Position numbers and translations under genes: made by a program
Shown: piece after piece, positions 16,400 through 38,276 of the stretch
Position numbering within the stretch: position 1 is the stretch's first letter
How the letters are laid out: the number at the start of each line of letters is the position of its first letter
Assembly (NCBI GenBank): GCA_009781225.1
Contig: WQYN01000001.1
Location: forward strand, 1 to 43,781
Source: Micrococcales bacterium
GTDB lineage: Bacteria; Actinomycetota; Actinomycetes; Actinomycetales; WQXJ01
Direction: 5' to 3'
Length of the DNA: 43,781 bases
Notes under the pieces: model-generated
What the model saw: the letters and a program-made list of their open reading frames with translations, nothing else
What the model was told of the DNA's origin: nothing
Databases searched by the model: none

Positions 16400-16558
16400 A
16401 TGACGTCCCGTCCCGCGCAGCCGCGCTCTCAGCACTTCCGCTTGGACCCCCATCTGCCCCGCCCCGGTCGCCGTCTAGCCGCCACCTTGGCCACCGCCGC
16501 CCTTGTCATGGGTGGCGTCGTTGGCATCGACGTGGTCCGTCCTACCCCCGCCGAGGCC
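16400..16558 (+). other. Signal peptide of the giant adhesin
   Basis: Basic N-region (RPGRR), hydrophobic core LAATLATAALVMGGVVGI, and a likely AEA-F cleavage site around aa 53. Confidence 0.6.
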
Positions 16559-19500
16559 TTTGCTCCGTTCCCGATCAACGACATCAGCAACGGCTCCTAC
16601 ACGCCTAGCATGTGGACCACCAACTACGCCCAGCAGTGCCTGGGCGCCGGCGACGTCCCCTTCTCACGCACCTCCGACAACTGGATGCGCATGACCTTCG
16701 GGACGAGGAACTGTCGCGCCAACATGCTCACGACCCAGTCCTTCCCGTCGACGACGGGCCTGTCGATCTCGTTCGACTACCGCATGGTCGGACGCATGGA
16801 GGTCGACGGCAAGGCGGGCGACGGCTTCTCTGTCTACCTCTCCAACGGCAGTCAATCGTCGGTCACGGCGGGTGGACCCGGTGGCGGCCTTGCTTACGCG
16901 CGCCACATCCACTCGGTGACGGGTACGAGTCCGGGTGTCTTAGGTGGCTTCATGGGAGTCGGGATTGACGCCTACGGCAGTTACTCCTCGACGGAGGAGG
17001 GCCGAACGGGCGGCAATATGTCGATCTATGGGCGACCCGCGATTGGTCTGCGCGGCTCGGGTAACGGCAACGGCCCCACCGACGCCCTCTACCCCTGGGT
17101 GAACGGGGCGGTCGTATCGAACCTGACGACGGGATCGTCCGGTACGCCTGACCCGTCAACGCAGTCGACCTCGACTTACCGCAGAGTTAACGTCACGATT
17201 AACCCCGTCAACCCCGGCCTGTTGGAAGCAGTGGTCTCGATCTCCCCGTCGACCGTTAAGAACCAACAGCCCACCTCGATGACCAGGGTCTTCACCGGGA
17301 ACTTGGCTGGGGTCTACGCCCAACAGCCGCTCCCCGCGACCCTCAAGCTAGGCATCGGCGCCTCGACGGGCATGGCCTCCGCGATCATGGACATCAAGAA
17401 CGTGATTGTCACCGCCCTCACGGACGCGGCCGCGAGCGGCTCCATGGTGACGCCGGGCTATCCGGGCTTGGACGCCCCCGCCTTCCTTGTCGGCGACACG
17501 GTGACCTGGAATCTCACGGCTACGAACCACGGGCCCAGCCGGATCGGTGATCCTCCGAACGGCGTGGCGGTGCTCTATGACGACGTCTCCTCGGTCTTTG
17601 ACACGGTCTCTTGGACCTGTACCCCCTCGGGTGGGGCGACCTGCGGGACCACGAGCGGCACCAGCCCGATCATTCGAACCACCTGGTATGGGCCCGCCGG
17701 ATCCTCGGTAACAATCCAAGCCACAGGCACCGTCAAGAACGGTGCCGCCGTCGGGGACCACGACTTGGGTGGTGTGATCCCCACCGATTTCGCGAATAAC
17801 ACGGTGGCGCCCGGGAGCAACTTCATCACTCTCGATGGGTCCATTGGTGACGTCAACCTCGACAACAACACCGTCCGACTCCCCATCAAGGTCGTCAACG
17901 CCAACCTCTCCTTTGACCTGACCGCCTCCCCGACCGCGCCCACGAGCTATGTCGTGGGCCAGGCGATCCAGTTCACCCACACGGTCTCCAACCCGGGCGC
18001 CTCCCCCATCACCGGCATCACGATCATTCCCGAGTCCTTTACTCCCGCGGGTGCCGCAGTCCTTCCCGGACCCCTGACGTGGAACTGGCCCGGGGCCGCC
18101 GGGACTCTCCAGCCTGGACAAACGGCGACCGCGACCGCGACCTATGTCTTGACGCAGGCTGACGTGAACACAGGCAGCCTCACCTATGTGGCCCATGCCG
18201 AGGCAGTTTCTGTCAACTCCTTCCCCTTGGTCTCGCCCCCGCGAACGGTCACCTTGAACTCGAACCTGCCCTCCTGGGGGAACTCCAGTGTGTCGATCAC
18301 CCAGGGACCTAGGCAGGCCGATGGGGTTGACTCCCACACGGTCACCGTCATTCTTCGCGACGCCAACAACCAGCCCGTCGTGGACCGCACGGCCATCATC
18401 ACCAAGTCCGTGGACCCCTCGGCTGGGGTGACCCTGGGCACGACCCTCCAGGGACCGCCGGGGACCTACACCTTCACCGTGGTCTCCACCTCCGCCGGCA
18501 CCAAGAACGTGACCGTGGGATACCCCGGTCTCTCGCCGTGGCCGTCGCTTCCCGCCCTCTTTGTCGCCGGTCCTCCCTCTCCTTTGAAGTCGTCGTTTGT
18601 TATCGTCCCGAGCACCCTTCCCGTCGGCGAGACCGCAACGGCGCGAGTCACTCTCATTGACGCCTATGACAACCCGCTCATCGGAGAGGTCATCAGCTTC
18701 ACAGCCGACCAAAACGGACTCATCTCGGGGACGCAGACCGCCACGACCAATTCCAGCGGTGTCGCCGAGCTCCCCCTCACAACGACCCAGGCTGGCCTCT
18801 ACACGGTTCACGCACGCCGAGGAACGACCGAGCTCTCCGACTCCCCCAAGGACGTCACCTTCACCGCCGGGCCTCCCTGTACGGCGACGATGACCTCCGA
18901 CGTGGAACCCCTGACGACGGGAGTCAAGGTCGCCGACATGGTCGACACTCACTCGGCCAAGGTCACCTTGCGCGACTGCGCTGGCAACCCGACGCGGGAC
19001 TGGGCCGTCACCTTCTCCCTGGTCGGAGCCAATCCTTCGGGTACTGGTTTGACCATTACGACCGATTCTAATGGCGAAGCTCGGCTGAACTTCGCGTCGG
19101 ATTCATATCGGACGCACACAGCGACTCTCCGCGCTCAATTCACGGTCGCCACCACCAACTATCAGATTCCTGTCAAGGGCTCGCCAACTGTTTATGTTCT
19201 AAACTTTGATTTCGCGACGAATCCTCCTTCGCCCGACACGACATGGTATGACTTGTCGACGGGAACGAGAATTGCCAACGGAAGCGATGCCCACACGATC
19301 ACCGTGTTGTTGCGCGACTCGAACAATAATCCTATCTCGGGGCAAGAGACATGGCTTTCTGCGACCGCTGCCGGTCGCGCCGGTCAAGGCAACGCCACTG
19401 TTACTGCCTTCGCGGAAACCTCGACACCGGGCCGGTACACCGCCTCCGTCACCTCGACGGCCCAGGGCATCAAGGACGTCACCGTCTCCTGGTCCTCCCA

Positions 19501-22500
19501 GGGGCTGCCGCCAGCCATGCCCATCTCCCCGCTCGTCGCGGGGCGTACGACGCTCGAGTTCGTCTACTCCTCGTCGACTGTTCACTTGATCAGCGTCACC
19601 AAGGCCCCCGCTGGACCCTTGACGGCCGATGGCGTGCAGGCCTACACCGTGACGGCGGTCATCCAGGACGCCCAGGGCAACGGCCCGGCCGACATGGTCG
19701 CGCTGCTGGGTCGATCCCTGACCGCCGGTGATCCTCGCGGCGTTGTCATCTCCCAGATCACCCCTGTCGCCGGCTCGCCTGGCTCCTACTCCTTCACGGT
19801 GACCTCCACCTCGAGTGGGGACAAGACCCTGACCGTCACCTTCGACCCACCCGGTGGTGCTCAGGAGAGCGGAAGCGTGGTTCTCGGGTTTGTCCACGGC
19901 CCGCCCGATCCGAACCACTTCACGCTCACCTCGACCACGCGGTCCACGGTCAAGCAGCCCAACGGAACCGAATGGCATGACGCGACCATCACGATCTATG
20001 ACGCCTTCGACAACCTCGTGACCACGCCCGCCGACCAGACCGCGGTCTCCTTCCAGCTCATCTCCGGCACCGGAGCACGCTTCGCCGCCGGCTATCCCAA
20101 CTCGGGGACCACCTCCAATGGCACGCTCACGACGAGGATCGTTGCTGACGTGCCTACGGATGCCGTCATCGGCGGCATGGCCGGAACCTTTGTGATTCTC
20201 TCCGGCGGTGCGCCCGCGCGTCTCACCCTGCCCTTCCGGTGGGGTATCTGCGTCACCGATCCTGACCAGTGCATCCCGCCGCCCTGCGACGACCCGGCTC
20301 TGACCTACTACACCCTGGCTCCTGCCGGACCGCTCGCCGTGGGGTCCGGGACGTACACCATCACCGCGCGTCTGCTCGCCCCCAACTGCATCGACCCCAT
20401 GACGGGCCAGGCACAATACCTATCGGCAACCGCCATCGACACCCTCAATGCGGCGATGGAGTACCGCGGGACAGTCACAGCCTTCACGGAAACCTCGCCT
20501 GGCAACTACACCGCCTCAATCACGGCGACGAAGGCCGGCATCAAGCAGGTGGCGACCCAGTGGTCGTACACCACGACCACCCAGGTGATCCCTCCGCTCA
20601 ACCCGCCTAACCGTTCCACCGTCGAGTTCATCGCTGATCCTGACCCGGACTGGACCAAGTCCTGGTATGAGGTGAGCTCCGGCGAGCGGGCGGCCGATGG
20701 GGTCGAAGCCCACCAGGTCAACGTGACCCTCGTCGATCGCTACGACAACCCGGTGATCGGGGCCGCAAGTCGCCTCGCCGGCTCCTCGACGCTCATCGCG
20801 ACCGGCCAGGCGAACCTCGTCACCTTCGGAGCGTTCTCCATGGTGTCCCCGGGCGTGTACCGCGCCTCGATCACCTCGATGACCTCAGGCGTCCACCGAA
20901 TCTACGTGACCCTCGATAGGATCCCCGCCTCGGCGGGGCGTGACGATGTCCCCTTCCAGGTCAACCGGGATGCCACATTCCGGGCGGTGACCCCCGGATG
21001 GGCACGGCTCACCGTGACCGGCGGGCCCAGCCAGGCCGTGGAAACCGGCACCTACACCCTCCAAGTCGAGGTTCTTGACCGCGCTGGCGGCAACCCGGTG
21101 GACGGCATCCCCGTGACTCTGGGTCTGTCCGGAGCCGCAGCGGGACAGCCGTACTTCACCGAGGTCGGCAACCCCTCCCCGCAGGTCACCAAGACCACGG
21201 GAACCGCCGGCATTGTCACAGTCCAGGTGAAGTCGACGAAGTCCGGAGAGTTCCCGGTCTCGGTGACGATCCCGGGTCTTGGGACGATTCTCGGCCTTCC
21301 TGCCACCCTCATCTTCACCCCTGGCGACGTTGACCTCACGGCTTCCCGCCTGTGGACCGATGACACCGGCGCCCGGTATGCCGATGGCCAGTCCTACTAC
21401 ACGGTCAACGTCGAGCTGCTTGACCGCTTCGGCAACAAGGTTCCCGGCAAGTCCGTCGAGTTCATTCCCTCAGCCCCCGGCCAGGCAATCTCTCCCGATC
21501 CTGCGGACCGTCGCTCGGGTCCTGATGGGCGCGTGAGTGTCCACGTCGTCTCCTCGGCAGTGGGCCCGGTGGTCGTGACCGCTCGGGCCGAGGGAGCCCT
21601 CCTGGTTCTTCCCTCCGGTGGACCGCAGCAGGTCAACCTCATGTTCGTCGCCAAGGACATCGACTACAACCAGTCCTTCTTCACCCTCCCCACCGATGCC
21701 GACAACAAGGTCGCAGGGAACTCAGCGGATCCCCACAAGATCCTCATTTGGATCTACGACTCCTCCGGCAACCCCATTGACCTCTGCGTCGACTCCCAGG
21801 GGCTGCCCGCTCCCTGCCGCTTTGACCAGCTGGCGGGTACGGCACTCGGCCCCGAGGGCAACGGTGTGATTGGCGCCTTCCGCAAGGCTCTGCCCTCGGA
21901 GGTTCCTGGCTCCGGATATGACGGTTCGCAGTACATCGCGGACATCACCTCCATCACCTCGGGCATCAAGCAGATCAGCCCCAGCTATGCCGGAAACTCC
22001 TTCAGGCCTCTCCAGATTGGCCGCGACAAGGTGACCTTCATCGCCGGTCCCCCGTCGCAGACCAACTCGAGCTACACGGTCTCGACAACGCCTCGCGTCG
22101 TCGCCGACGGTGTGAGCACCCAGACCGTGACCGCGCAGCTGCGCGACGCCAACGGCAATCCCTGCACCGGGTTTGCTACCTCCCTTCAGGGGCAGGCACC
22201 CCCGGCGATCGTCGGAGGCTTTACTCCGATTGACAGCCAGCCGGGCTTCTACATCGCCTCGATCACCTCACGGGTTGCTGGGTCTCACCCGGTGACCGTG
22301 GCGCTCAACGCCGCGCCCATCGCCCAGTTCACCCTGGCAGGTAGCGGCAACACCCTCGCCACCTTCGTGGCGGGCGACCCCGATCCCTCGAAGTCAACCC
22401 TCGTCGTGACCCCCACCTCCCAGGAGGTCGGGCTCAACGTCACCGCAACCATCACGGTCCGTGACGCCGAGGACAACCCCGTCCCCGGCACGGCCGTGAG

Positions 22501-25500
22501 GATCTCCGCGGCGCCCCCGACAGTTCCTGGATTCCCGGGCGGCTACCTCACCGCCACCTCCGACGCCAATGGCGTTGCCCAGATGGTGTTCACCACCACG
22601 AAGGCCGGCCTGATCTCGGTGACCGGCGAGCTTGCCGTCACCCAGCGTGAGGTCTCTGGCTCCCCTGTTCCCGTTACGTTCCGGGCGGGAGCGCCCTATG
22701 CGGCGACCCTCGTCAAGACGAGCCCTGCCGACAAGCTCGCGGCCAGCGGCACGGTCCGCCACTCCGCGAAGCTGACGCTCGTTGACCGTTACGACAACCC
22801 CATCGGTGGACAGACCATCGACTTCTCCCTCTCCGGGCTCACCGGGGCCACACTCATCCCAGCCGGCGGCGTCACCACGTCCGCCGATGGTGAGGCCCTC
22901 GTGGAAGCCCACTCGACTGCCGTGGGCCTCGCGACCCTGACCGCGCAGGTCCGCGGCTTAACTGTCCCGGTCACTCCGCCATCGATCACCTTCGAGTGGA
23001 TCAATGCGCCCGGGCCGGCCACCGTCACCTTTGATCTGACGACCGGAACACGCGTCGTCGGGGATGCGGCCAATCCGCACCGGGTGACGATCACGGTCAA
23101 GGACTCCAACGGTGTGCCCATCCAGGGCATCGAAGACCAGATTGCCATTACTGCAGGTGATGCGACGATCGGCGACGTCCGGGAGACCTCCACGCCGGGT
23201 GTCTACACGGCACCAATCACGGCCACCGTGGCGGGAACCAAGACCGTCCAGGTGTCCTACGGAACCAACACCGGCCAGCCGGAAGTCCCCGGGCGCAACA
23301 CGGTCACCTTCGTGGCCGGCACCCCCTCGGCTGACCGCTCCTCGATCTGGGTAACGACGGGAACCCGCGTCGCCAATGGCGTCGCGTACCACGTCGTCAC
23401 CGTTGACCTCCGTGACGAGTGGGACAACCCAGTCTCTGGCTGGGCGACCACCCTGGGCCAGCCGGGCATGACCCCGACGATCGGCCGCACGGTCACCTCC
23501 TTCGATCCCGACCCGGCGGGCGAGGGCCGCTACCTGGCCCAGGTCACCGCCATCGTGGCAACGGACTACACCGCGATCGTCCGTATCCCGGGAGTTGGCG
23601 ACATCCCCGCCAAGGGCAACAACGTCATCGCCCGCTTCGTGGCCGGTCCGCCATCGCCCGACCGCTCGGAGCTCGTGGCACTGACCTCGGGCGACCGGTA
23701 TGCCGTGAGCCAGGAGCATGTCGTGCGTCTGACCGTGCGCGATGCCCAGGGCAACCCGATCCCCTTGGCTACGGCGACGATCTCCACCGTTCCGCCCCTC
23801 TCCCTGCCGGGCGGAGGCCAGGTGACCACCGACACCGCGGGTGTCGCGGACCTCGCCTTCACCTCGCCGGTCGCGGGACTCTATACCGTCCACGCAGCTA
23901 TTGACCTCCTCACCGGCGGAACCGTCGCCCCCCAGGGCTCGGGTGTGGTTCAGGTTCGCTTCATCACAGGCAACCCCTCCACCGCCAACTCCTTCTTCGA
24001 GGTCTCTCAGCGAGCCGACCAGATCGCCAATGGCGGTCCCACCCACTTCCAGACGGCCACCCTCTTCCTCGCGGACTCCAACAATGTCCCGATCGCCGGG
24101 CGTGCCGACCAGATCGACGCGTGGTTCGTGCCCGCAGGCCCGACCTTCACCAAGGTTGCTGGCATTGACTGGGTGGAAGACACCGCCGCTGGTCCTGGCT
24201 GGTATCGCGCGACCATCGTGTCCCTGAAGTCCGGTGACTTCGCGATGAAGGCTCAGGTCGGAAGCACCGCGATCAATGTCAAGCTAAACGCCAATGACAT
24301 TGCCTCCTTCATCCCCGGACCCGGCGATCCTTCCCGCTCCATCTTGTCCGTCGACAAGACGACCGCCCAGGTCGGCGAGCAGGTCGTTGCGACCGTCCAG
24401 GTCTATGACGTCAATGGCAACCCCGGCGCCGGGCAAGTCGTCGAGCTGTGGACCGTTGAGCGCGACCCGATCGGCGGAAGCCCGTACCTCAGGCTCCGGG
24501 CCGGAGCAGACGGCAAGGTCTCCTTCATCTTGTCCACGACCAAGGCCGGCACCTACACCGTCTACGCCGGACTCCTCCTCGATGAGAACAACCCGCCTGT
24601 CCAGGTCATCAACTCTGGTCAGATCGACGTGACCTGGCTTGCCGGTCCGGTGTCGGTGTTGCGTACGTCGTTGGATGGTTCGTCGGGTGTTCGTGTTGCT
24701 GATGGTGTTGCTTATCATGAGGCTGTTGTGGTTGCTCGTGATGAGTTTGGTAATACGTTGTCTGGTGTGCCTGTTGTGTTTGAGTTGACGGGTGTTGGTC
24801 AGGTTGCTGCTGGTTATGCGGTGTCTGATGTGACTGGTTCGGATGGTTCGTTGACGGTGCGTTATGTGTCGTCGTTTGTGTTGGGTTCGGCGGAGTTGCG
24901 TGCTCGTGTTGGTTCGGGTGTGTCGTCGTTCTTGGTGACGGATAATGCTCCGGTTCCTGCGGTTAAGGTGTTGTATTGGTCGTGGGAGAATTCTGGTCCT
25001 CCTGGGTCGAATTCGTATTTCGTGGTTCCTACGGATACGAAGCGTGCTGATGGTGTGGCGTCGCATACGGTCGAGGTGGTGTTGGCTACGGATCAGGGTG
25101 CGCCTGTTGTTGGTGAGCAAGCCAATATTGATGTGCGGGTGAATCCTGTTGCTGGATCGCCGACTCAGCCGTCTGGTACGACGTGGACGGTGGGTTCGGT
25201 TTCTCAGAAGCCTGGTGAGCCTGGCCATTATGTGGTGTCGGTGACATCGACGTATGCTGCGACGTTCAGGGTTGAGGTGTTGTACAAGTCGATGTCGTTG
25301 CCTGCGAATCCGGTGGGTCGTGACACGATCACGTTTACTGCTGGGGATCCTGATCCGGGTAAGTCTGGGTTTGTGGTCTCGTCGACGTTGGGTGTGAAGG
25401 CGAATGGTACTGATTTCCAGACGGTGACGGTGACGTTGCTGGATGGGTTCGGTAACGGGATCGCTGATCAGGTGTTGACGACGTCTGCTGTGGTGAACAA

Positions 25501-28500: not shown

Positions 28501-31500
28501 AGAACTATCGTTCACCTCCTCAACAGCTACCACCTACACCATCTACGCCGACATCCCCCTACCAACCGGTGGAAACGTCCAACCACAAGGCTCTGGTGTG
28601 GTCCAAGCCCAGTTCATCTCCGGACCCATCGACCCCACCAACCCCAACACGTGGTTCATCGTCTCCCAATACACCGACGTCGTCGCTGACGGAGACCCCG
28701 ACCACTTCCAACTCGTCACCGTCTCCCTAGCTGACGCATCCGGAACCCCCATCTCCGGGCTAGACGGAACCGGAGTCCTAACCGCCGGCTCAGTGACCTT
28801 CGACCCAACCCTTGGACCCATCTCCACCGCGTTCACCGAAGACCCCAACAACCCCGGCATCTACACCGCCAAAATCACCTCCATCAAGTCCGGCACCTTC
28901 ACCGTCTCAGTAACCGCCCAACAAGGCAACCCCATCCCCCTACCCCTCAAACCCGGCGACAACAACAAAGCCATCTTCATCCCCGGCACCGCCGTCGCCG
29001 CCTCCATCCTCTCCGCACAACCCCTCACACTCCCCGTCGGACAAACCTCAACCGCCCAAGTCATCGTCGTCGACGCCAACAACAACCTCGTCGGCGGCCA
29101 ACCAGTCAAATTCACCACCACCCCACCCGGCCCCATCAACACCCCCAACAACGAAGCCGTCATCTCCTCCAACCCCCTCACCGGCATCTCCACCCTCCCC
29201 CTAACCACCACCACCGCCGGCACCTACACCCTCCACGCCACCCTCGAAGGCATCGGAACCCCACCCACCCCCATCCCCGTCACCAACTCCGGAAACATCA
29301 ACATCACATGGACACCTGACGTCGCGAATGCGACGATCACGCTGACTGGCTCAACAGACCAGTCGGTGCCCGTCGGTGGCGATGATTCCCACTGGGCGCA
29401 GGTCGAGGTCGTCGATCCCTATGGCAACCCCGTTCCCGGGGTCCAGGTCGACTTCTCCAACACGGGAGTGGGTTCGTGGAGTGCTCCGGCCCTGTGCACC
29501 ACCCCGCAGGCCTGCCGGGTCACGACGGACGCCAATGGCAAGGCCCGTGTCGAGATTGTCTCCAACCAGACTGGCCGCGCGCAGATCACTGCCAAGGCCG
29601 ACGGCAAGGACGTGACGAACGGTGGAACGACCCCCGTCGAGCTCATCCTCGAGTTCGGTCCTGGTGTCCCCGTTGATTCGGCTTCTCGCTTCCAGGTCTC
29701 GACAGACTCACGCCTGGCCAACGGCTCCGACGCGCACACCATCACGGTGACACTCGTCGACGCCTTCGGCAATGGAGTTCCCGGCCTCGCATCTCAGCTG
29801 TCCGCCGAGCCCACCCCGTCAGCGGGCGTGTCGATCTCCTCCTTCACTCCCGGAGCGACGGCTGGGCAGTACACGGCCTCCATCACCTCGACGGTGGCCG
29901 GAGTCAAGACAATCACCGTCGCACGAGGAACCACCGCCATCCAGGCACGCGACGGGCTCAATCAGGCGCTCTTCATCCCCGGTGACCCGGCGCCTGGCAA
30001 CTCCTTCTTTGAGGTCTCACTGACGCCGAACGTCGTTGCTGACGGCGATCCGGCTCACTTCCAGACCGTGACCGTGACTCTCCGCGATGCTCAGGGCAAC
30101 CTGGTCTCCGGATTTGCGAACCGACTGCAGCCAAGCGCCATTTCGCTTGTTGGTGCGGTTCAAGCCAGTGTCAGCACCTTCCTCCCGACCGGGGACGGCG
30201 TCTACACCGCGCACGTGACAGCGACCAAGGCCCTGGACTATCGAGTCACTGTCTCGCTGCTCAACGGAGTCAGCCAGTCCATCGGACACATCGACACCCT
30301 CGCAGTCCCGCAGCGGCTGTGCAACGACATTGCCTCCTTCGTTGCCGGATCGCCTGATACGGAACTGTCGAGGCTCGATGTCTCGCCTGGTCTGGTCGAA
30401 CCGGGCGGAGAGCATTGGGCCGAGGTGACGATTGTCGACGTGAGAGGCAACCCTGTGCCCGGCGTCGAAGTTCACCTTTGGACCGATGCTCCGACCGGCG
30501 GCACACCGATCACCATCGCCAACGGAGGGATTGTCACAACCGACGCCTCCGGCAAGGCCCGCGTGACCCTGACCACGCGGAAGGCCGGCACCTATTACGT
30601 GTTCGCTGTGCTGACTGACTCTGGCAACCACATCACCAACTCCGGAATCAAGTTCGTCACGTTCATCGCCGGTCCGCCGAGCGAGGCGACGTCGAGTCTT
30701 GTGGTGCCAACGGAAGCACTACCGACTCCGATTGTCGCGAACGGGGTGGACCACCACCGGGCTGAAGTCACCGTGCGCGACGCTGACTACAACCCGGTGC
30801 CTGGAGTCACGGCCCAGGTGACCATCACCCCGCCGGGTGGTGGCACGCCCCAAACGCTGACGACGAACCTGACAAGCTCCAGCGGAGTTGGCTCCGTGGA
30901 GTTCGCATCGACCAAGGCGGGCGTCCATGTGGTGACCGCCGCCGTCATCGTCAGCGGCGTTCCCCGAGAGGTGGCCACGGGTAGCCCGGCCAACGCGACA
31001 TTCGTTGCCGGGCCGCCCGCGGTGGGTGGCTCGACCATCACGGTTGATAAGTACCGCGCGGAGGCAAGGCCGTCGCGCGATTGGATCACCGTCACCGTCA
31101 CCGTGAACGACCAGTTCGGCAACCGGATCACCACCGGTGGCGCCGATGTCGAAATCCTCACCACCTTGGGGACGGTCACCAACTTCGTCGACAACGGCGA
31201 TGGGACCTACACGGCTCGCCTGTCCTCCTCGCAGGGCGGACCCGCCACGGTGGCCTTCAGGATCGGATCCCAGACCTCCTCGGGTCCGGCTCCTCTGACT
31301 CGCGAAGTCAGCTTCATCCGCACTCCGTCGACCCCGATCCCACGGTTCGCCAACGCAACGACCGTGGTCGGGACGGCTGACCCGGGCAACACCATCCGCA
31401 TCTACCACGAGGACGTCGAAGTTTGCGTCACCCTCGTCGCCGCTGATGGCACCTTCCGCTGCGAGCCGATGGTTCCGCAGCAGCTCGACGGGGCGCGGCT

Positions 31501-33076
31501 GGTCATCGTCGCCACCGACTCCTACGGCTACAAGTCCGATCCCGCGGGAGTCACCGTCCGTGCTCGCAAGCCCCTGCCGCCCATCGTCGATCCGACAAAC
31601 GGCACCGAGGTCACGGGCGAGGCCGAGCCGGGCACCACCATCACCGTGAGGGACGATGACGGACGCGTCCTGTGCACTACGACCACCAACCCCGACGGTT
31701 CCTTCCGCTGCCGGCCTCTCGTCCCACGGCCAGCTCACCTCGATCCGATCCACGTGACCGCGACGGACGATGCCGAGAACACCTCCGATCCCACGACCGT
31801 CATCGTCGATTCGCAGCCGCCAGAGCCGCCCGAGGTCGAGCCGACGGACGGGACCGTGATCTACGGCACCGCCGAACCGGACACCGACATCACGATCAAG
31901 AATGACAAGGGCATCGTGATCTGCCGGACCCGTACTAACTCCGCCGGATCCTTCGCCTGCTTCCCCGCCGTCGTCCCCGATCACGGGACCCCGCTGGAGG
32001 TCACCGCGACCGATGCTGCAGGCAACACATCACGGCCGACGATCGTCGTCGTTGACCGTGACGCGCTGCCCAAGCCGGTCATCCATCCGACCAACGGCAG
32101 CAAGGTCAACGGAACGGGACGTCCGGGAGCCACGGTCGTCGTCACCTTCCCCAACGGTGATCAGGCAACGGCAACCGTCGATCCCAACGCGAACTGGAGT
32201 GTCCAGCCGCCGCCCACATACACACCGCGCCATGGCGATGTCATCACCGCCTACCAAGAGGTGCCGTTCAACCGTGACGGACCCAAGCGTTCGGATACGG
32301 CCAGTGTCATTGTGGATCGCACCCCGCCGGACGCCCCGATCCTCAAGCCCTCCGACGGCACGACCCTCTCGGGTGAGGGCGAACCCAACACCTATGTCAC
32401 CGTGCGGGATGCCGACGGCAACGTCATCGGCACCGGAAAGGTCAACCCCGACGGCCGGTTCACCGTCCCGTTGAACCCGCAGGCCAAGGAAGGTGACATC
32501 GTGACCGTCACTCTCACCGATGATGCTGGCAATGTCTCCCGGCCCTCGTCGCTGAGAATCGGTCTCATGCGGATCGTCGTTGACAAGGCTCAGCTCTACG
32601 TCCTGGAAGAGCAGACGGCCCGCATTTACAACCTCCAGCCCGGCGAAAAGGTGAGCGCCACCATGCTCCCCGATGGGCTGGATCTTGGAACCACAATCGC
32701 CGATGCCAATGGCATTGCGACCTTTACCTGGTCAGTCCCCACGGCCTCGGGGATGGCGGGTCACAAGGTCGAGGCAATCGGCGAGATCTCCGGCAAGGTC
32801 ACGTCCGACCCGTTCCTCACAATGGAACGCAACGGATTCTCTCCCAAGGTGGAAACCATCACCCCGAGCGTGACCGTGACGGCAGCCCCGACCGTGTCTG
32901 TGACCCCCGGCTCCAAGGACGTCACAGGCAAGTCAGGCGGAGCGCATCCCACGACCGGTGCTGAGGGCCTGATCCCAGCTCTCGGTGCCGCTCTGGGTGC
33001 CCTCCTCTCCGGCCTTGTGCTCCTGGTCGCCGCCCGGCGGCGCCGTGAGGATGAGGGCTCGGAGATGGCTATCTAG
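16400..33076 (+). CDS. Giant (5,558 aa) repetitive cell-surface adhesin-like protein
   Basis: One uninterrupted 16,677-nt ORF. It has an N-terminal signal peptide, a lectin-like head and DUF11-like domains. Roughly 40-45 tandem invasin/intimin-type Ig-like (Big_1-like) domains of about 100 aa follow, with the recurring motif ADG..H.VTV.L.DA.GNP..G and G.YTA.ITS..AG. Five Ig-like stalk repeats of about 80 aa and a C-terminal anchor signal complete it. Confidence 0.9.
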   Translation: MTSRPAQPRSQHFRLDPHLPRPGRRLAATLATAALVMGGVVGIDVVRPTPAEAFAPFPINDISNGSYTPSMWTTNYAQQCLGAGDVPFSRTSDNWMRMTFGTRNCRANMLTTQSFPSTTGLSISFDYRMVGRMEVDGKAGDGFSVYLSNGSQSSVTAGGPGGGLAYARHIHSVTGTSPGVLGGFMGVGIDAYGSYSSTEEGRTGGNMSIYGRPAIGLRGSGNGNGPTDALYPWVNGAVVSNLTTGSSGTPDPSTQSTSTYRRVNVTINPVNPGLLEAVVSISPSTVKNQQPTSMTRVFTGNLAGVYAQQPLPATLKLGIGASTGMASAIMDIKNVIVTALTDAAASGSMVTPGYPGLDAPAFLVGDTVTWNLTATNHGPSRIGDPPNGVAVLYDDVSSVFDTVSWTCTPSGGATCGTTSGTSPIIRTTWYGPAGSSVTIQATGTVKNGAAVGDHDLGGVIPTDFANNTVAPGSNFITLDGSIGDVNLDNNTVRLPIKVVNANLSFDLTASPTAPTSYVVGQAIQFTHTVSNPGASPITGITIIPESFTPAGAAVLPGPLTWNWPGAAGTLQPGQTATATATYVLTQADVNTGSLTYVAHAEAVSVNSFPLVSPPRTVTLNSNLPSWGNSSVSITQGPRQADGVDSHTVTVILRDANNQPVVDRTAIITKSVDPSAGVTLGTTLQGPPGTYTFTVVSTSAGTKNVTVGYPGLSPWPSLPALFVAGPPSPLKSSFVIVPSTLPVGETATARVTLIDAYDNPLIGEVISFTADQNGLISGTQTATTNSSGVAELPLTTTQAGLYTVHARRGTTELSDSPKDVTFTAGPPCTATMTSDVEPLTTGVKVADMVDTHSAKVTLRDCAGNPTRDWAVTFSLVGANPSGTGLTITTDSNGEARLNFASDSYRTHTATLRAQFTVATTNYQIPVKGSPTVYVLNFDFATNPPSPDTTWYDLSTGTRIANGSDAHTITVLLRDSNNNPISGQETWLSATAAGRAGQGNATVTAFAETSTPGRYTASVTSTAQGIKDVTVSWSSQGLPPAMPISPLVAGRTTLEFVYSSSTVHLISVTKAPAGPLTADGVQAYTVTAVIQDAQGNGPADMVALLGRSLTAGDPRGVVISQITPVAGSPGSYSFTVTSTSSGDKTLTVTFDPPGGAQESGSVVLGFVHGPPDPNHFTLTSTTRSTVKQPNGTEWHDATITIYDAFDNLVTTPADQTAVSFQLISGTGARFAAGYPNSGTTSNGTLTTRIVADVPTDAVIGGMAGTFVILSGGAPARLTLPFRWGICVTDPDQCIPPPCDDPALTYYTLAPAGPLAVGSGTYTITARLLAPNCIDPMTGQAQYLSATAIDTLNAAMEYRGTVTAFTETSPGNYTASITATKAGIKQVATQWSYTTTTQVIPPLNPPNRSTVEFIADPDPDWTKSWYEVSSGERAADGVEAHQVNVTLVDRYDNPVIGAASRLAGSSTLIATGQANLVTFGAFSMVSPGVYRASITSMTSGVHRIYVTLDRIPASAGRDDVPFQVNRDATFRAVTPGWARLTVTGGPSQAVETGTYTLQVEVLDRAGGNPVDGIPVTLGLSGAAAGQPYFTEVGNPSPQVTKTTGTAGIVTVQVKSTKSGEFPVSVTIPGLGTILGLPATLIFTPGDVDLTASRLWTDDTGARYADGQSYYTVNVELLDRFGNKVPGKSVEFIPSAPGQAISPDPADRRSGPDGRVSVHVVSSAVGPVVVTARAEGALLVLPSGGPQQVNLMFVAKDIDYNQSFFTLPTDADNKVAGNSADPHKILIWIYDSSGNPIDLCVDSQGLPAPCRFDQLAGTALGPEGNGVIGAFRKALPSEVPGSGYDGSQYIADITSITSGIKQISPSYAGNSFRPLQIGRDKVTFIAGPPSQTNSSYTVSTTPRVVADGVSTQTVTAQLRDANGNPCTGFATSLQGQAPPAIVGGFTPIDSQPGFYIASITSRVAGSHPVTVALNAAPIAQFTLAGSGNTLATFVAGDPDPSKSTLVVTPTSQEVGLNVTATITVRDAEDNPVPGTAVRISAAPPTVPGFPGGYLTATSDANGVAQMVFTTTKAGLISVTGELAVTQREVSGSPVPVTFRAGAPYAATLVKTSPADKLAASGTVRHSAKLTLVDRYDNPIGGQTIDFSLSGLTGATLIPAGGVTTSADGEALVEAHSTAVGLATLTAQVRGLTVPVTPPSITFEWINAPGPATVTFDLTTGTRVVGDAANPHRVTITVKDSNGVPIQGIEDQIAITAGDATIGDVRETSTPGVYTAPITATVAGTKTVQVSYGTNTGQPEVPGRNTVTFVAGTPSADRSSIWVTTGTRVANGVAYHVVTVDLRDEWDNPVSGWATTLGQPGMTPTIGRTVTSFDPDPAGEGRYLAQVTAIVATDYTAIVRIPGVGDIPAKGNNVIARFVAGPPSPDRSELVALTSGDRYAVSQEHVVRLTVRDAQGNPIPLATATISTVPPLSLPGGGQVTTDTAGVADLAFTSPVAGLYTVHAAIDLLTGGTVAPQGSGVVQVRFITGNPSTANSFFEVSQRADQIANGGPTHFQTATLFLADSNNVPIAGRADQIDAWFVPAGPTFTKVAGIDWVEDTAAGPGWYRATIVSLKSGDFAMKAQVGSTAINVKLNANDIASFIPGPGDPSRSILSVDKTTAQVGEQVVATVQVYDVNGNPGAGQVVELWTVERDPIGGSPYLRLRAGADGKVSFILSTTKAGTYTVYAGLLLDENNPPVQVINSGQIDVTWLAGPVSVLRTSLDGSSGVRVADGVAYHEAVVVARDEFGNTLSGVPVVFELTGVGQVAAGYAVSDVTGSDGSLTVRYVSSFVLGSAELRARVGSGVSSFLVTDNAPVPAVKVLYWSWENSGPPGSNSYFVVPTDTKRADGVASHTVEVVLATDQGAPVVGEQANIDVRVNPVAGSPTQPSGTTWTVGSVSQKPGEPGHYVVSVTSTYAATFRVEVLYKSMSLPANPVGRDTITFTAGDPDPGKSGFVVSSTLGVKANGTDFQTVTVTLLDGFGNGIADQVLTTSAVVNNNLLNVGSWTPGPVGVYTARLRTTTAGSYTMIVSRATPGGSVPVAVFVGANDVARFEPDDPCQSNTTFTIVSKATGQVVTSVPVGLESWDGFVLRAQVMDCSATPNPVPGIPVAVSVPGVEPVFTELPKLTGATGVAEFDLKSTKAGSFLVTATVNSGEFTKTATAVFTPLAPDPRVSTLTGTDGEARFADNTAFHTAVATVMDRYANVIADVPVAFDVRNVGYEASAVPTNHRTGPDGKVTIQIKSDRQVGEALVSATMGTPGVAILDASDAPKVLRMRFVSKEVDPGNSYYTVSTGSRVAGDNANPHQVRVELYDSAGAPAATDPALIRGEATGGGVVGGFTLVPGTIATYVASITSNTIGWKDITVKVSDQPINSVPGEPTAVLFVAGPVAGVVYTVSDGVLPADGTSAHTVTVTITDANGNGIDGLAAQLEATAPNCVVTYPFENPEVGVYTASITSVVKGDHLVTATRNGQPITLKTAGNNLARFTNSSPPDLSRSTLVVSDGDKPVGENHTATVTVVDNQGNPIPNVPVTVWATPNTTPTPLDAHGTTDNDGKVVISFTSHKVGVYTVYASLDTTQNPARQVSGSGQQYAIFVAGPPSAEWTTLEGTDDVTKLVNSPSDPHRAWVIVRDQYQNLVTKAGTMVTFTLSGLPGASLSTTAPIEVDINGRAEVRVTSTAQGTAVVRASVSQAGAPTITVIKPADHLNLVFDTSTVDPASSNYQLSADTRVANLVDAHTITVRLRDINGARVHNAQDLISVVFTPRGAAPGVPVVGTWSEGSDPLTSYGDYTASITSRYADIFDVTVSVGQNIAPQPGSPTFVTFVAGPVSPVTSTFEVTDGTRVANGISAHIVTVWLKDAYGNPITGDRNSLSGQALPAQVASFTEATPGTYTANITSRTAGTWQVRVSHLDLPNLLDPGSNNRNAIFVAGPPSGLTSTLERTTTNPKLVTTGFHTIRVTVKDADSNIIAYQPLTIRTAPPLALPNGGLVTTDNSGVAELSFTSSTATTYTIYADIPLPTGGNVQPQGSGVVQAQFISGPIDPTNPNTWFIVSQYTDVVADGDPDHFQLVTVSLADASGTPISGLDGTGVLTAGSVTFDPTLGPISTAFTEDPNNPGIYTAKITSIKSGTFTVSVTAQQGNPIPLPLKPGDNNKAIFIPGTAVAASILSAQPLTLPVGQTSTAQVIVVDANNNLVGGQPVKFTTTPPGPINTPNNEAVISSNPLTGISTLPLTTTTAGTYTLHATLEGIGTPPTPIPVTNSGNINITWTPDVANATITLTGSTDQSVPVGGDDSHWAQVEVVDPYGNPVPGVQVDFSNTGVGSWSAPALCTTPQACRVTTDANGKARVEIVSNQTGRAQITAKADGKDVTNGGTTPVELILEFGPGVPVDSASRFQVSTDSRLANGSDAHTITVTLVDAFGNGVPGLASQLSAEPTPSAGVSISSFTPGATAGQYTASITSTVAGVKTITVARGTTAIQARDGLNQALFIPGDPAPGNSFFEVSLTPNVVADGDPAHFQTVTVTLRDAQGNLVSGFANRLQPSAISLVGAVQASVSTFLPTGDGVYTAHVTATKALDYRVTVSLLNGVSQSIGHIDTLAVPQRLCNDIASFVAGSPDTELSRLDVSPGLVEPGGEHWAEVTIVDVRGNPVPGVEVHLWTDAPTGGTPITIANGGIVTTDASGKARVTLTTRKAGTYYVFAVLTDSGNHITNSGIKFVTFIAGPPSEATSSLVVPTEALPTPIVANGVDHHRAEVTVRDADYNPVPGVTAQVTITPPGGGTPQTLTTNLTSSSGVGSVEFASTKAGVHVVTAAVIVSGVPREVATGSPANATFVAGPPAVGGSTITVDKYRAEARPSRDWITVTVTVNDQFGNRITTGGADVEILTTLGTVTNFVDNGDGTYTARLSSSQGGPATVAFRIGSQTSSGPAPLTREVSFIRTPSTPIPRFANATTVVGTADPGNTIRIYHEDVEVCVTLVAADGTFRCEPMVPQQLDGARLVIVATDSYGYKSDPAGVTVRARKPLPPIVDPTNGTEVTGEAEPGTTITVRDDDGRVLCTTTTNPDGSFRCRPLVPRPAHLDPIHVTATDDAENTSDPTTVIVDSQPPEPPEVEPTDGTVIYGTAEPDTDITIKNDKGIVICRTRTNSAGSFACFPAVVPDHGTPLEVTATDAAGNTSRPTIVVVDRDALPKPVIHPTNGSKVNGTGRPGATVVVTFPNGDQATATVDPNANWSVQPPPTYTPRHGDVITAYQEVPFNRDGPKRSDTASVIVDRTPPDAPILKPSDGTTLSGEGEPNTYVTVRDADGNVIGTGKVNPDGRFTVPLNPQAKEGDIVTVTLTDDAGNVSRPSSLRIGLMRIVVDKAQLYVLEEQTARIYNLQPGEKVSATMLPDGLDLGTTIADANGIATFTWSVPTASGMAGHKVEAIGEISGKVTSDPFLTMERNGFSPKVETITPSVTVTAAPTVSVTPGSKDVTGKSGGAHPTTGAEGLIPALGAALGALLSGLVLLVAARRRREDEGSEMAI
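16559..17420 (+). other. L-type (legume/ConA-like) lectin-like head domain
   Basis: Motifs GDGFSVYLSNG, GGPGGGLAYA and FMGVGIDAYGSY resemble the legume-lectin fold signatures (GDG.AF.L, GG.LG, V.VEFDT). The assignment rests on motif memory only. Confidence 0.45.
17421..18256 (+). other. Two DUF11-like (conserved repeat) domains
   Basis: VGDTVTWNLTATNHGPS and VGQAIQFTHTVSNPGASPITG are typical openings of DUF11/CARDB-like beta-sandwich repeats. Confidence 0.5.
18257..31337 (+). repeat. Tandem array of about 40-45 coding Ig-like (Big_1-like) domain repeats with higher-order periodicity
   Basis: Domain boundaries recur as F(V/I)AGPP / F.AGDPDP. Core motifs (ADG..H.V.V.L.D..GNP, TD..G.A...F.S.KAG.YTV) recur about every 100 aa. 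Three or four domain subtypes alternate in blocks. Confidence 0.85.
31338..32563 (+). repeat. Five Ig-like stalk repeats of about 80 aa
   Basis: Repeats open with P(T/S)(N/D)G(T/S).(V/L).G.(A/G)EP(G/D/N)T.(I/V)(T/V)(V/I) and close with V.ATD.AGN.S.P. The first three carry a conserved Cys pair. Confidence 0.75.
32945..33073 (+). other. C-terminal anchor signal: HPTTG motif, hydrophobic helix, basic tail
   Basis: HPTTG-AEGLIPALGAALGALLSGLVLLVAA-RRRRED has the tripartite layout of a sortase sorting signal, but H replaces the usual L of LPXTG/LAXTG. Confidence 0.55.
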
Positions 33077-33095
33077 CACAATCCCCCCACAGCAG

Positions 33096-33136
33096 GCGCG
33101 CCGCCCGGGCCCCGCCCATTGCGCCGGGCGGCGCGC
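33096..33136. terminator. GC-rich perfect hairpin between the convergent adhesin and glpC genes, a likely bidirectional terminator
   Basis: GCGCGCCGCCCGG (33096-33108) is the exact reverse complement of CCGGGCGGCGCGC (33124-33136), with a 15-nt loop. It lies 20 nt after the adhesin TAG and 21 nt after the glpC stop. There is no long U-tract. Confidence 0.6.
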
Positions 33137-33156
33137 GCTTGCTCAGTACAGCCGGC

Positions 33157-37180: not shown

Positions 37181-37223
37181 GGTCTTCTCCTCGCGTCAGG
37201 AATCGCCCCGTCACCGGTACCGA

Positions 37224-38147: not shown

Positions 38148-38276
38148 GACCCTACTCGCGCCGACCCCGTTTGTGACCGGGAATCTCCGGCGTGTTCCAC
38201 TCGGCTACGTTGTCACGCGAGGGGGCTGGGGTGGCGCCCGACAACGCGACCTGGGGTCGTCATCGTGCACACTCGG

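What the first reader, a model, noticed from the sequence alone, without database searches (positions are those of the whole stretch)
23636..29600. The anomalous block starts and ends at the same point of a higher-order repeat, so it looks like an in-phase cassette insertion or exchange
The left edge follows ..NSGQIDVTW (Trp codon 24,635-24,637) and the right edge follows ..NSGNINITW (Trp codon 29,309-29,311). These lie 4,674 nt (1,558 codons, roughly 15 Ig domains) apart. The roughly 1 kb before each edge are clear paralogues with the same domain order. From 23,636 the sequence reads FVAGPPSPDRSEL..PPLSLPGGGQVTTDTAGVADLAFTS..TGGTVAPQGSGVVQVRFITG..FFEVSQ..THFQTATLFLAD. From 28,286 it reads FVAGPPSGLTSTL..PPLALPNGGLVTTDNSGVAELSFTS..TGGNVQPQGSGVVQAQFISG..WFIVSQ..DHFQLVTVSLAD. 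Removing 24,638-29,311 would join normal-composition DNA to normal-composition DNA in frame and in repeat phase. That is the geometry expected for unequal crossing-over or homologous replacement within a modular adhesin. It suggests a way such genes gain or swap blocks of domains.
Basis: partly seen in the sequence, partly recalled or inferred. Interest (0 to 1): 0.7.

Follow-up and report, generated by a model that had tools for sequence, protein, structure and literature searches.

The report
Mirror-skewed domain block in giant adhesin
One old 15-domain repeat unit inside a giant actinobacterial surface-protein gene has silent codon positions that run in a straight line from G/T-only at its left end to C/A-only at its right end. 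This points to an undescribed strand-specific DNA process that treats exactly this block as its unit, and not to a newly inserted cassette.

Summary
The compositional block (24,638-29,311; 4,674 nt; 1,558 codons) begins and ends within three codons of two Trp codons. These close paralogous ~330-aa stretches (44% identity), in frame and in repeat phase.

The block is the second copy of an old supra-domain tandem duplication. A relative at ~50% identity (P0002) carries the same left junction, and P0001 carries the block body, so it is not a recent gain.

The notable feature is the composition. The G/T fraction at third positions fits P = 1 - x/L with no free parameter, falling from 0.97 to 0.01. 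The slope weakens with constraint (position 3 > 1 > 2), and the flanks are normal. This is mutation pressure filtered by selection.

The pattern implies that the + strand is the template or single strand on the left, the - strand on the right, and the switch point is uniformly distributed. That fits two converging machines launched from the block ends. Because the ends are direct-orientation homologous sites, excision or re-copying of the block is the simplest route. The mechanism is inferred, not shown.

The block appears in three assemblies, and its polymorphism per site is about 4.6 times that outside it. A G/T-only block also occurs in a homologous gene of another actinobacterial MAG (L006).

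The parts
16400..33076 (+). Giant surface-protein gene of 5,558 aa. It has an N-terminal signal/TM segment, about 30 Big_1/Invasin_D3 Ig-like domains, 5 Big_6 domains and a C-terminal TM anchor.
19943..24637 (+). Unit A (aa 1182-2746), the first copy of the old ~1,560-codon supra-domain tandem repeat, with normal composition. Specific collinearity with the block is well supported from about aa 1576 (nt 21,125) onward.
   Evidence: 34% identity over 1,641 columns, E 2e-160
23636..24637 (+). Left flank paralogue (FVAGPPSPDRSEL ... NSGQIDVTW), with normal composition.
   Evidence: 44% identity over 330 aa to 28,289-29,311
24635..24643 (+). Left compositional edge, TGG|CTT GCC. Third positions switch from normal to G/T-only within three codons or fewer.
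24638..29311 (+). The anomalous block (aa 2747-4304), the second copy of the supra-domain unit. The G/T fraction at third positions falls linearly from 0.97 to 0.01.
24638..26975 (+). G/T-rich (keto) half. At four-fold sites in the leftmost twelfth: A 0.00, C 0.01, G 0.44, T 0.54. T/(C+T) at two-fold sites is 0.90. Val is 17% and Ile 1%.
26976..29311 (+). C/A-rich (amino) half. At four-fold sites in the rightmost twelfth: A 0.14, C 0.86, G 0, T 0. A/(A+G) is 1.00. Thr, Pro, Ile and Asn are enriched, and Arg is 0.3%.
28289..29311 (+). Right flank paralogue inside the block (FVAGPPSGLTSTL ... NSGNINITW).
29309..29317 (+). Right compositional edge, TGG|ACA CCT. Third positions switch from C/A-only back to normal within three codons or fewer.
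25156..28442 (.). Fourteen strain-level differences from ENA contig k141_5676511, falling in four clusters and one singleton: 25156/63/64/98; 26254/84/90/305; 27463/69; 28087/93/105; 28442.

Best explanation
What it is:
- The block is the second copy of an old tandem duplication of about 15 Ig-like domains, inherited vertically. A relative at ~50% identity has the same left junction, and another carries the block body.
- In this lineage the block has been, and probably still is, the unit of a strand-asymmetric substitution regime. Amino bases (A, C) are replaced by keto bases (G, T) on the + strand at the left end and on the - strand at the right end.
- The balance between the two shifts linearly with position.

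How it most likely works (inferred):
- At any position x, the + strand is the old, template or single-stranded strand with probability 1 - x/L, and the - strand with probability x/L.
- That is the rule for two converging processive machines that start at the two block ends and meet at a uniformly distributed point. The machines could be forks on a block-sized circle whose origin sits at the junction, or end resection or re-synthesis on a block-sized linear or gapped intermediate.
- The two ends are homologous sites in direct orientation. One sequence-specific site per repeat unit would therefore give excision or a double cut, which yields a symmetric two-ended substrate. It would not give two oppositely oriented origins or promoters.
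- The amino-to-keto direction fits deamination of C and A on the exposed strand. It also fits the actinobacterial NucS/EndoMS filter, which removes only G-T, G-G and T-T mispairs and so lets only changes towards A/C survive on the newly made or incoming strand.
- Purifying selection keeps the reading frame and the Ig folds intact.
For: Shown:
1. The zero-parameter model P(G/T at position 3) = 1 - x/L has logL -761. The best free line has -757 (intercept 1.04, slope -1.03), the best two-step model -865, and a constant -1079. Runs tests have |z| below about 1.3 in all but the two rightmost windows, where K-state sites are too few and one window crosses the right edge. The K and M states are therefore mixed site by site and not arranged as a mosaic of pure segments.
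2. Both transition classes are involved. In the last two bins of the right end there are 0 T among 45 two-fold pyrimidine-ending codons, against a baseline of 0.21-0.26. At the left end A/(A+G) is near 0.
3. The slope scales with constraint: position 3 -1.03, position 1 -0.31, position 2 -0.09. C at position 2 is about 90% retained and there are no stop codons in 1,558 codons. This indicates gradual pressure under selection, not a single burst.
4. The edges are sharp to within three codons and the flanks are normal.
5. The block is orthologous in P0002 and P0001. Their amino-acid composition lacks the shift: the index is +0.38 here against -0.02 in P0002 for the first 100 aa.
6. The same sequence occurs in the ENA and Logan assemblies. 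There are 14 of 35 differences in the block, which makes up 12.7% of the compared length (P = 5e-5 per site). They include G<->T on the left and three C<->A on the right, meaning changes within the allowed alphabet.
7. An independent G/T-only block with a sharp left edge lies in a homologous gene of another Actinomycetota MAG, L006.
8. NucS specificity for G-G, G-T and T-T mispairs, and rejection of such mismatches on incoming single strands in vivo, are reported in PMC11551744. Long nascent ssDNA as a mutation target in migrating-bubble synthesis is reported in PMC9262586.
Against: - No excised circle, deletion allele, nick site, origin or dedicated enzyme has been seen.
- Neither the window nor L006 carries a recombinase, reverse transcriptase, deaminase or Rep gene nearby.
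- When polymorphisms are counted as clustered events and not as sites, the enrichment in the block is only marginal (5 of 18 events, P = 0.07).
- A real two-ended strand-displacement replicon, phage phi29, shows no such gradient at third positions. Single-strandedness alone is therefore not enough.
- Spontaneous ssDNA deamination is too slow unless the process is very frequent or enzyme-assisted (my estimate).
- At the block centre, GC3 stays near baseline. That needs an added GC-favouring pressure.
- L006 has only the G/T polarity, and its edges lie inside a domain. The mirror symmetry and the link to repeat phase are therefore not general.
- No DNA of a true block orthologue could be retrieved. 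L001 cannot be assigned to unit A or to the block.
Confidence: 0.4

Rival explanations
1. One reading: the block was recently inserted or swapped in as a foreign cassette, by unequal crossing-over or homologous replacement at the conserved linker. Its composition would reflect the donor.
For: The boundaries are sharp, in frame and in phase, and lie inside the most conserved inter-domain DNA motif, TTCGTGGCCGGTCCGCC-like (family D9). The block is compositionally discrete.
Against: P0002, at ~50% identity, has the same unit A to block junction, and P0001 carries the block body. Identity to these relatives is about equal inside and outside the block. There is no mobile-element gene and no plasmid or viral homologue. 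No known donor genome has a 1-to-0 keto gradient. The gradient also reaches its extremes exactly at the block ends, so the block itself is the frame of reference and not a slice of a larger skewed donor.
Confidence: 0.15
2. Convergent transcription inside the gene: a sense start at the left edge and an antisense start at the right edge, with polymerases colliding at random points. Transcription-associated damage or R-loops on the non-template strand would then drive amino-to-keto change.
For: The G/T-rich strand is the coding strand in the left half here and in L006. The random-collision rule also gives a linear gradient. G-rich non-template strands stabilise R-loops, which would give positive feedback (established knowledge).
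Against: No promoter-like sites were found anywhere in 23,800-30,200, although this is a weak test for actinobacteria. Known transcription-associated skews are small, not saturating. The two edges are direct-orientation homologues, whereas this model needs oppositely oriented promoters.
Confidence: 0.1
3. A dedicated, programmed diversification system that targets this block. A trans-encoded nuclease, recombinase, polymerase or deaminase would act at the repeat-phase sites and use the block as a variable cassette of the adhesin.
For: The target is a surface adhesin. Polymorphism per site is about 4.6 times that outside the block, and about 9 times that in the rest of the gene. Amino-acid composition is shifted. 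A second case occurs in a homologous gene.
Against: No candidate enzyme lies within about 16 kb upstream or 10 kb downstream, nor in L006. Silent sites are hit hardest, which is the pattern of undirected pressure and not of selected diversification. No silent donor cassette appears in the window or among homologues.
Confidence: 0.15
4. Selection on the sequence itself, for example separating the codon sets of the two repeat units to suppress recombination, removing intrastrand structure, or forming long-range mRNA pairing between the G/U-rich and C/A-rich ends.
For: Strands poor in complementary bases cannot fold on themselves. Repeated genes benefit from silent divergence (inference).
Against: The two units already share no DNA-level repeat. 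No long inverted repeat links the two ends. Amino-acid composition is dragged along as well, and no selective model predicts an exact linear 1-to-0 gradient.
Confidence: 0.05
5. An assembly, sequencing or chimera artefact.
For: All sources are metagenome assemblies, and the ENA, Logan and window contigs may come from related samples.
Against: Two other assemblies agree with the window at 99.90-99.94% and show their own SNPs, with one spanning both junctions. The frame stays open for 1,558 codons, encoding Ig domains that are orthologous to relatives. No repeat at the junctions could mislead an assembler. An independent case exists in a different study (L006).
Confidence: 0.03

Closest known systems
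Higher-order tandem duplication of Ig-like domain arrays in invasin/intimin-type (Big_1) adhesins, by unequal crossing-over
   Same: The block is one copy of a two-copy supra-domain repeat. Its boundaries lie at the conserved linker, in frame and in phase.
   Different: The duplication is old: 34% aa identity between copies, and the same left junction is present in a relative at ~50% identity. It does not account for the composition. No presence/absence polymorphism was found.
Replication-associated skew domains: bacterial ori/ter skew and mammalian 'N-domains', with an upward jump at origins and a linear decline between them (Touchon 2005 and Huvet 2007, cited from memory)
   Same: There is an upward skew jump at each edge and a linear decline between them. 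The leading-type strand is G/T-rich. The linear law follows from a uniformly distributed meeting point.
   Different: The scale is 4.7 kb inside one gene, the amplitude is saturating (0.97 to 0.01 at silent sites), and the flanks show no outward-fork signature. No origin is known here.
Vertebrate mtDNA strand-displacement gradient, in which C>T and A>G rise with the time the H strand spends single-stranded (Reyes 1998 and Faith & Pollock 2003, cited from memory)
   Same: Both amino bases are lost from one strand, the dependence on position is linear, and silent sites are nearly saturated.
   Different: Here both strands are affected in mirror image, within a chromosomal gene segment. A real two-ended strand-displacement replicon (phi29) shows no such gradient.
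Strand-coordinated mutation clusters at breaks and in break-induced replication (kataegis; PMC9262586, PMC6786661)
   Same: C>T on one side switches to G>A on the other. The cause there is long ssDNA in repair intermediates.
   Different: In those cases intensity peaks at the break, the events are single, and with APOBEC the context is TC. Here intensity peaks at the outer edges, the state is a selected equilibrium, and C preceded by T is the least converted.
NucS/EndoMS non-canonical mismatch repair of Actinobacteria (PMC11551744, PMC5290159)
   Same: Its substrate alphabet (G-T, G-G, T-T) matches the keto/amino split seen here, including the tolerated C<->A and G<->T changes. Both carriers are Actinomycetota.
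   Different: NucS is genome-wide and has no known positional or strand polarity. Its involvement here is pure inference.
Cassette-based antigenic variation (Borrelia vlsE, Neisseria pilE) and diversity-generating retroelements
   Same: The target is a surface protein, the variable block is sharply bounded, and strong GC skew is a known feature of vls loci (from memory).
   Different: No silent cassettes, template repeat or reverse transcriptase were found. The changes are not adenine-specific.

Membership tests
Big_1 / Invasin_D3 Ig-repeat surface adhesin | Arrays of Big_1/Invasin_D3 domains scoring above the Pfam gathering threshold | tested here: met
   Big_1 at 400.6 and 450.2 bits (cut-off 34.9) with 15 + 18 stretches, Invasin_D3 at 343.6 and 369.5 bits, and Big_6 x5 at the C-terminus.
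Big_1 / Invasin_D3 Ig-repeat surface adhesin | Export signal and cell-surface anchoring | tested here: inconclusive
   An N-terminal hydrophobic segment and a C-terminal hydrophobic segment followed by RRRRE can be read in the translation. No predictor was run.
   Both edges follow NSG-x-I-x-[VI]-T-W. The flanks share 44% identity over 330 aa, and the spacing is 1,558 codons.
   The copies share 34% aa identity, and only short 60-75% DNA matches are found.
   P0002 spans the same left junction, P0001 carries the block body, and L002 and L003 carry the block. Only a few relatives are available.
Horizontally acquired island | Mobile-element genes, or homologues on plasmids or phages, with different relatedness from the flanks | tested here: not met
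   The flanks are housekeeping genes. There is no plasmid or viral match. Identity to relatives is ~50% in the block and ~55% in the flank.
Diversity-generating retroelement | Reverse transcriptase gene, a template/variable repeat pair, and adenine-specific changes | tested here: not met
   No RT was found among the window ORFs, there is no repeat pair, and both C and A are depleted.
vls/pilS-type segmental gene conversion | Silent donor cassettes homologous to the variable block | tested here: inconclusive
   None were found in the window or among database homologues, where the best match is 50%. The rest of the genome is unavailable.
APOBEC/SsdA-type ssDNA cytosine-deaminase hypermutation (kataegis) | C-only changes in a TC (or other fixed) context, arising as a one-off cluster | tested here: not met
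   T/(C+T) is lowest after T (0.39, against 0.74 after C, in zone L2). A>G-type change is also present. C at position 2 is retained and there are no stops.
Repeat-induced point mutation (RIP-like) | C:G>T:A changes in both copies of a duplication, confined to the duplicated DNA | tested here: not met
   Unit A is normal. The copies were already diverged in relatives. T>C and A>G classes and transversions are also involved.
Replication/repair-associated strand skew domain | Opposite skew sign on the two sides, G/T excess on the leading-type strand, and dependence on position | tested here: met
   GC skew runs from +0.38 to -0.62 and AT skew from -0.51 to +0.35. The third-position keto fraction is linear in position.
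Replication/repair-associated strand skew domain | A demonstrated origin, nick or intermediate at the skew jumps | not testable with these tools
   This needs reads or wet-lab mapping.
Protein-primed / strand-displacement linear replicon | Such replicons show a keto-to-amino gradient from end to end | tested here: not met
   In phi29, the third-position G/T fraction is 0.48-0.58 along the late genes, with no trend of the required kind.

The most novel reading that the evidence does not exclude
Actinomycetota may have an undescribed way of handling defined blocks of repeat-domain surface-protein genes as discrete DNA units. The block would be excised or double-cut at once-per-repeat sites, copied or resected from both ends, and reinstalled. 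The NucS mismatch filter and/or ssDNA deamination would then turn each cycle into strand-polar, position-graded change. In effect this would be a bounded, gene-internal mutator domain that diversifies an adhesin without a retroelement.
Probability: 0.2. Interest if true: 0.9.

Novelty: new variant of a known kind. Interest (0 to 1): 0.78.

Why it matters
Strand compositional asymmetry is normally a weak, chromosome-scale trace of replication. Here it is saturating, confined to 4.7 kb inside one gene, mirror-symmetric and linear in position, with edges sharp to about three codons at homologous repeat positions.

If the inference holds, the sequence is a fossil record of a defined DNA intermediate. 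It shows which strand is old, which is new and where the process starts, in an uncultured actinobacterium. It also points to a local mutator domain in a surface adhesin.

The case gives a concrete test of whether NucS-type repair, which sees only G/T mispairs, can produce amino/keto-biased conversion. That consequence of the non-canonical mismatch repair of Actinobacteria has not been explored.

In-phase boundaries in modular adhesins do not by themselves show recent domain gain.

Tried and rejected
- Palindrome or long-range pairing of the two ends: only short chance inverted matches were found.
- Recent duplication: there are no DNA-level repeats.
- Mosaic of pure segments: runs tests give z near 0 in all but the two rightmost windows.
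- Step-function (ori/ter-like) skew: it fits about 100 log-likelihood units worse than the line.
- One-off hypermutation: C at position 2 is retained and there are no stops.
- TC-context deaminase: not seen.
- Internal promoters: none were detected, although the test is weak.
- Plasmid or viral origin: no matches.
- Local enzymes (RT, recombinase, deaminase, Rep): none in the window or in L006.
- phi29 as an empirical analogue: it shows no gradient.
- DNA of the closest relatives: P0001 and P0002 are not on record.
- First genome and metagenome scans with the junction alignment A1: nothing found.
- Second scans with the C-terminal alignment A2: 29 loci, of which only L006 is anomalous.
- L001/P0003 as a DNA-level orthologue of the block: rejected, because it matches the block end and the end of unit A equally (37% against 35%).
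- Literature searches for a described equivalent: none found.
- uvrC look-up with the longest ORF: failed, because the start codon differs.

Full report
**Setting.** The window is high-GC (~66%) chromosomal DNA of an uncultured actinobacterium. The closest homologues of the main gene come from Micrococcales, Cellulomonas, Isoptericola and Bifidobacteriaceae. One ORF, 16400..33076 (+), encodes a 5,558-aa protein with about 30 Big_1/Invasin_D3 Ig-like domains, five Big_6 domains and a C-terminal membrane anchor. Housekeeping genes on the opposite strand surround it. Upstream lie uvrA, a CHAP-domain gene, uvrC, rapZ, yvcK/cofD-like, whiA, gap and pgk. Downstream lie Fe-S/FAD oxidoreductase genes, a GmrSD_C-domain gene, uvrB, rpsA and pfk. 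No reverse transcriptase, recombinase, deaminase or Rep gene is present.

**Checking the observation.** The peptides and coordinates are right. NSGQIDVTW ends at 24,637 and NSGNINITW ends at 29,311, which is 4,674 nt (1,558 codons) apart. The only slip is that the F of FVAGPPSGL is at 28,289, not 28,286.

The compositional edges sit on these Trp codons:
- To the left of 24,635, third positions are normal (A 0.05, C 0.55, G 0.28, T 0.12).
- After one last C at 24,643, 95 consecutive third positions are G or T.
- On the right, about 140 consecutive third positions lack G and T up to 29,308, and usage is normal again by 29,317.

The stretches before each edge are true paralogues, with 44% identity over 330 aa. 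Sliding windows put block aa 3947-4146 on unit A at offset -1551 as the top hit, with 49-53% identity, and that diagonal dominates for block aa 3147-4304. For the last window scanned, starting at aa 4147, it ranks second, just behind an intra-block hit. The whole block aligns collinearly with the preceding aa 1182-2746 at 34% identity (E 2e-160). The first ~400 aa have no specific partner, however, and the domain after each edge is only generically similar.

**Is it a recent cassette insertion?** No.
- The two copies share no DNA-level repeat.
- P0002, a partial protein from another Micrococcales MAG, runs collinearly through the left junction. It is 55% identical to the end of unit A, then 50% identical to the block start, against 33% to the post-block sequence.
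- P0001 matches the block body at 50%, against 37% for unit A, and runs to the right-hand Trp.
- The duplication therefore predates a split as deep as ~50% protein identity.
- Identity to these relatives is nearly the same inside (~0.50) and outside (~0.55) the block, dipping to 0.44 only at the left extreme. Nothing suggests a foreign donor.
- There are no plasmid or viral homologues.

**What is really unusual.** I classified third positions as keto (G/T) or amino (A/C).
- The keto fraction by tenth of the block is 0.97, 0.87, 0.80, 0.65, 0.54, 0.49, 0.40, 0.26, 0.15, 0.01.
- The parameter-free model P = 1 - x/L has logL -761. A fitted line has -757 (intercept 1.04, slope -1.03), the best two-step model -865, and a constant -1079.
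- Runs tests have |z| below about 1.3 in all but the two rightmost windows, where K-state sites are too few and one window crosses the right edge. This is therefore a site-wise mixture and not a mosaic of segments.
- At four-fold sites the left extreme is A 0, C 0.01, G 0.44, T 0.54. The right extreme is A 0.14, C 0.86, G 0, T 0. The centre is close to baseline.
- Both transition classes are needed. At the right end 0 of 45 two-fold pyrimidine-ending codons use T (baseline 0.21-0.26), and at the left end A/(A+G) is near 0.
- The purine/pyrimidine ratio at four-fold sites also drifts, G-rich on the left and C-rich on the right. This means transversions within the allowed alphabet have had time to follow the genome's GC preference.
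- The gradient is also present at position 1 (slope -0.31) and weakly at position 2 (-0.09). It drags amino-acid usage with it: Val is 17% and Ile 1% on the left, against 7.7% and 8% on the right, and Arg falls to 0.3% on the right.
- C at position 2 is about 90% retained, and no stop codon occurs in 1,558 codons.

This is a long-acting mutation (or conversion) pressure filtered by purifying selection. It is neither codon design nor a single hypermutation burst.

**Is it real?** The source was found. ENA assembly ERZ27264051, contig k141_5676511 (54 kb), and a Logan contig of SRR10512954 carry the same sequence at 99.90-99.94% identity, with the same edges. No repeat at the junctions could mislead an assembler.

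Against the ENA contig the window differs at 35 sites over 36.8 kb. Fourteen of these fall in the block, which is 12.7% of that length (P = 5e-5). Within the gene the rates are 3.0e-3 per site in the block and 3.3e-4 elsewhere. Counted as clustered events, the excess is only marginal: 5 of 18 events, P = 0.07. The differences include G<->T on the left and three C<->A on the right, which are changes within the local alphabet.

**Is it lineage-specific?** The amino-acid composition of P0002 and P0001 lacks the shift. For the first 100 block residues the index is +0.38 here and -0.02 in P0002, and on the right it is about 0.1-0.17 lower here than in P0001. Their DNA could not be retrieved. L001/P0003 cannot be assigned to the block or to unit A, so this point rests on protein composition only.

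**A second case.** Among 36 loci of related genes that I fetched (L001, L005-L036 and L022-L024), one more is anomalous. In L006, a surface-protein gene of an unrelated Actinomycetota MAG flanked by purine-biosynthesis genes, third positions are almost only G/T from ~8,920 to ~12,650. At four-fold sites there: A 0, C 0.01-0.06, G 0.75-0.85, T 0.15-0.21. The block has a sharp left edge, decays to normal by ~10,400, and rises sharply again over nine 246-nt tandem repeats. It has no C/A-rich mirror half, and its edges lie inside a domain. The keto-only alphabet on the coding strand therefore recurs. The mirror symmetry and the link to repeat phase are specific to the window.

**Mechanism (inference).** Loss of A and C from one strand is the signature of that strand being single-stranded or acting as template while its partner is newly made. 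Two biochemical routes give that direction:
- Deamination of C and A on the exposed strand, as in vertebrate mtDNA (from memory).
- The actinobacterial NucS/EndoMS filter. It recognises only G-T, G-G and T-T mispairs and rejects them on incoming strands in vivo (PMC11551744). Only changes towards A/C, or within A/C, then survive on the new strand. This would also explain the tolerated C<->A and G<->T polymorphisms and the transversion drift.

The geometry follows. On the left, the + strand is old and the - strand is new. On the right it is the reverse. The probability of the first state is 1 - x/L, which is the law for a switch point uniformly distributed between two fixed ends. In other words, two converging processive machines start from the block ends. 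Candidates are:
- two forks on a block-sized circle with its origin at the junction;
- nucleases or polymerases working inward on a block-sized linear fragment or double-strand gap;
- colliding sense and antisense RNA polymerases.

The two ends are homologous positions in direct orientation. A sequence-specific site there would promote excision or a double cut, which gives a symmetric two-ended substrate. It would not give two oppositely oriented origins or promoters.

**Weak points.**
- No intermediate, site or enzyme has been observed.
- Spontaneous ssDNA deamination looks too slow unless events are very frequent.
- A genuine two-ended strand-displacement replicon, phi29, shows no such gradient.
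- Near-baseline GC3 at the block centre needs an added GC pressure.
- L006 does not share the symmetry.

**Comparison with known systems.** The pattern most resembles replication skew domains (the N-domain shape) and the mtDNA single-strand-time gradient. It differs from both in scale, in being saturating, and in being confined inside a gene. It fails the defining tests for several other systems:
- DGRs: no RT, no template repeat, and the changes are not A-specific.
- RIP: unit A is untouched.
- APOBEC-type kataegis: wrong sequence context, wrong intensity profile, and not a single event.
- Genomic islands: no mobile-element genes, no plasmid or viral homologues, and relatedness like the flanks.

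vls/pilS-type cassette conversion cannot be excluded without the rest of the genome. No donor copy is seen, though. Four literature searches found no description of such a block.

**Verdict.** The in-phase geometry is explained at the protein level by an ordinary, old supra-domain duplication. The coincidence of that unit with a saturating, linear, mirror-symmetric amino/keto gradient is not ordinary, and it points to an undescribed block-wise DNA transaction. My confidence is high in the descriptive account, about 0.4 in the converging two-ended-intermediate mechanism as a class, and lower for any specific version of it.

Noticed in passing
L006:8920-12650 (MAG uncultured Actinomycetota MFD07737.bin.1.21, contig CAWGQN010000004.1): This is a second, independent block with G/T-only third positions in a homologous 2,627-aa surface-protein gene. 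It has a sharp left edge at ~8,920, decays to normal by ~10,400, and rises sharply again over nine 246-nt near-identical Big_6-type tandem repeats. There is no C/A-rich mirror half, and the flanks are purine-biosynthesis genes.
   Followed up: partly
window:19000-19370: A short segment of the giant gene has low GC3 (0.57-0.60 against ~0.82) without strand skew. It is a different kind of local compositional anomaly.
   Followed up: no
L023:4194-12020 (JGI 3300032080, P0006): The third-position G/T fraction declines mildly and steadily along a homologous 2,608-aa gene (0.63 to 0.26). It is not extreme and may simply reflect domain content. A DDE transposase and Abi/TA genes lie downstream.
   Followed up: no
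window:24284-25228 (-), 25684-26160 (-), 26786-27259 (-): Long antisense ORFs lie inside the block. They are probably by-products of composition and not genes.
   Followed up: partly
window:13090-16400 and 33076-40367: The giant gene is on the opposite strand from almost all flanking housekeeping genes, so it may be transcribed head-on to replication. It also sits between uvrA and uvrB. Replication direction was not determined.
   Followed up: no
window:3331-3375: Six differences, including a 1-nt indel, separate the window from ENA contig k141_5676511 just downstream of the tpiA (TIM) gene. Strain differences outside the block are clustered too.
   Followed up: no
window:26254, 26290, 26305: Three of the four C/T strain differences in the left half of the block are at CpG. 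In the partly converted zones, T at position 3 is most frequent before G, but the flanks show the same preference.
   Followed up: partly
window:29157-29206: A 24-nt unit repeated 2.1 times (CCGGCATCTCCACCAACCCCCTAA-like) lies in the C/A-only end of the block.
   Followed up: no
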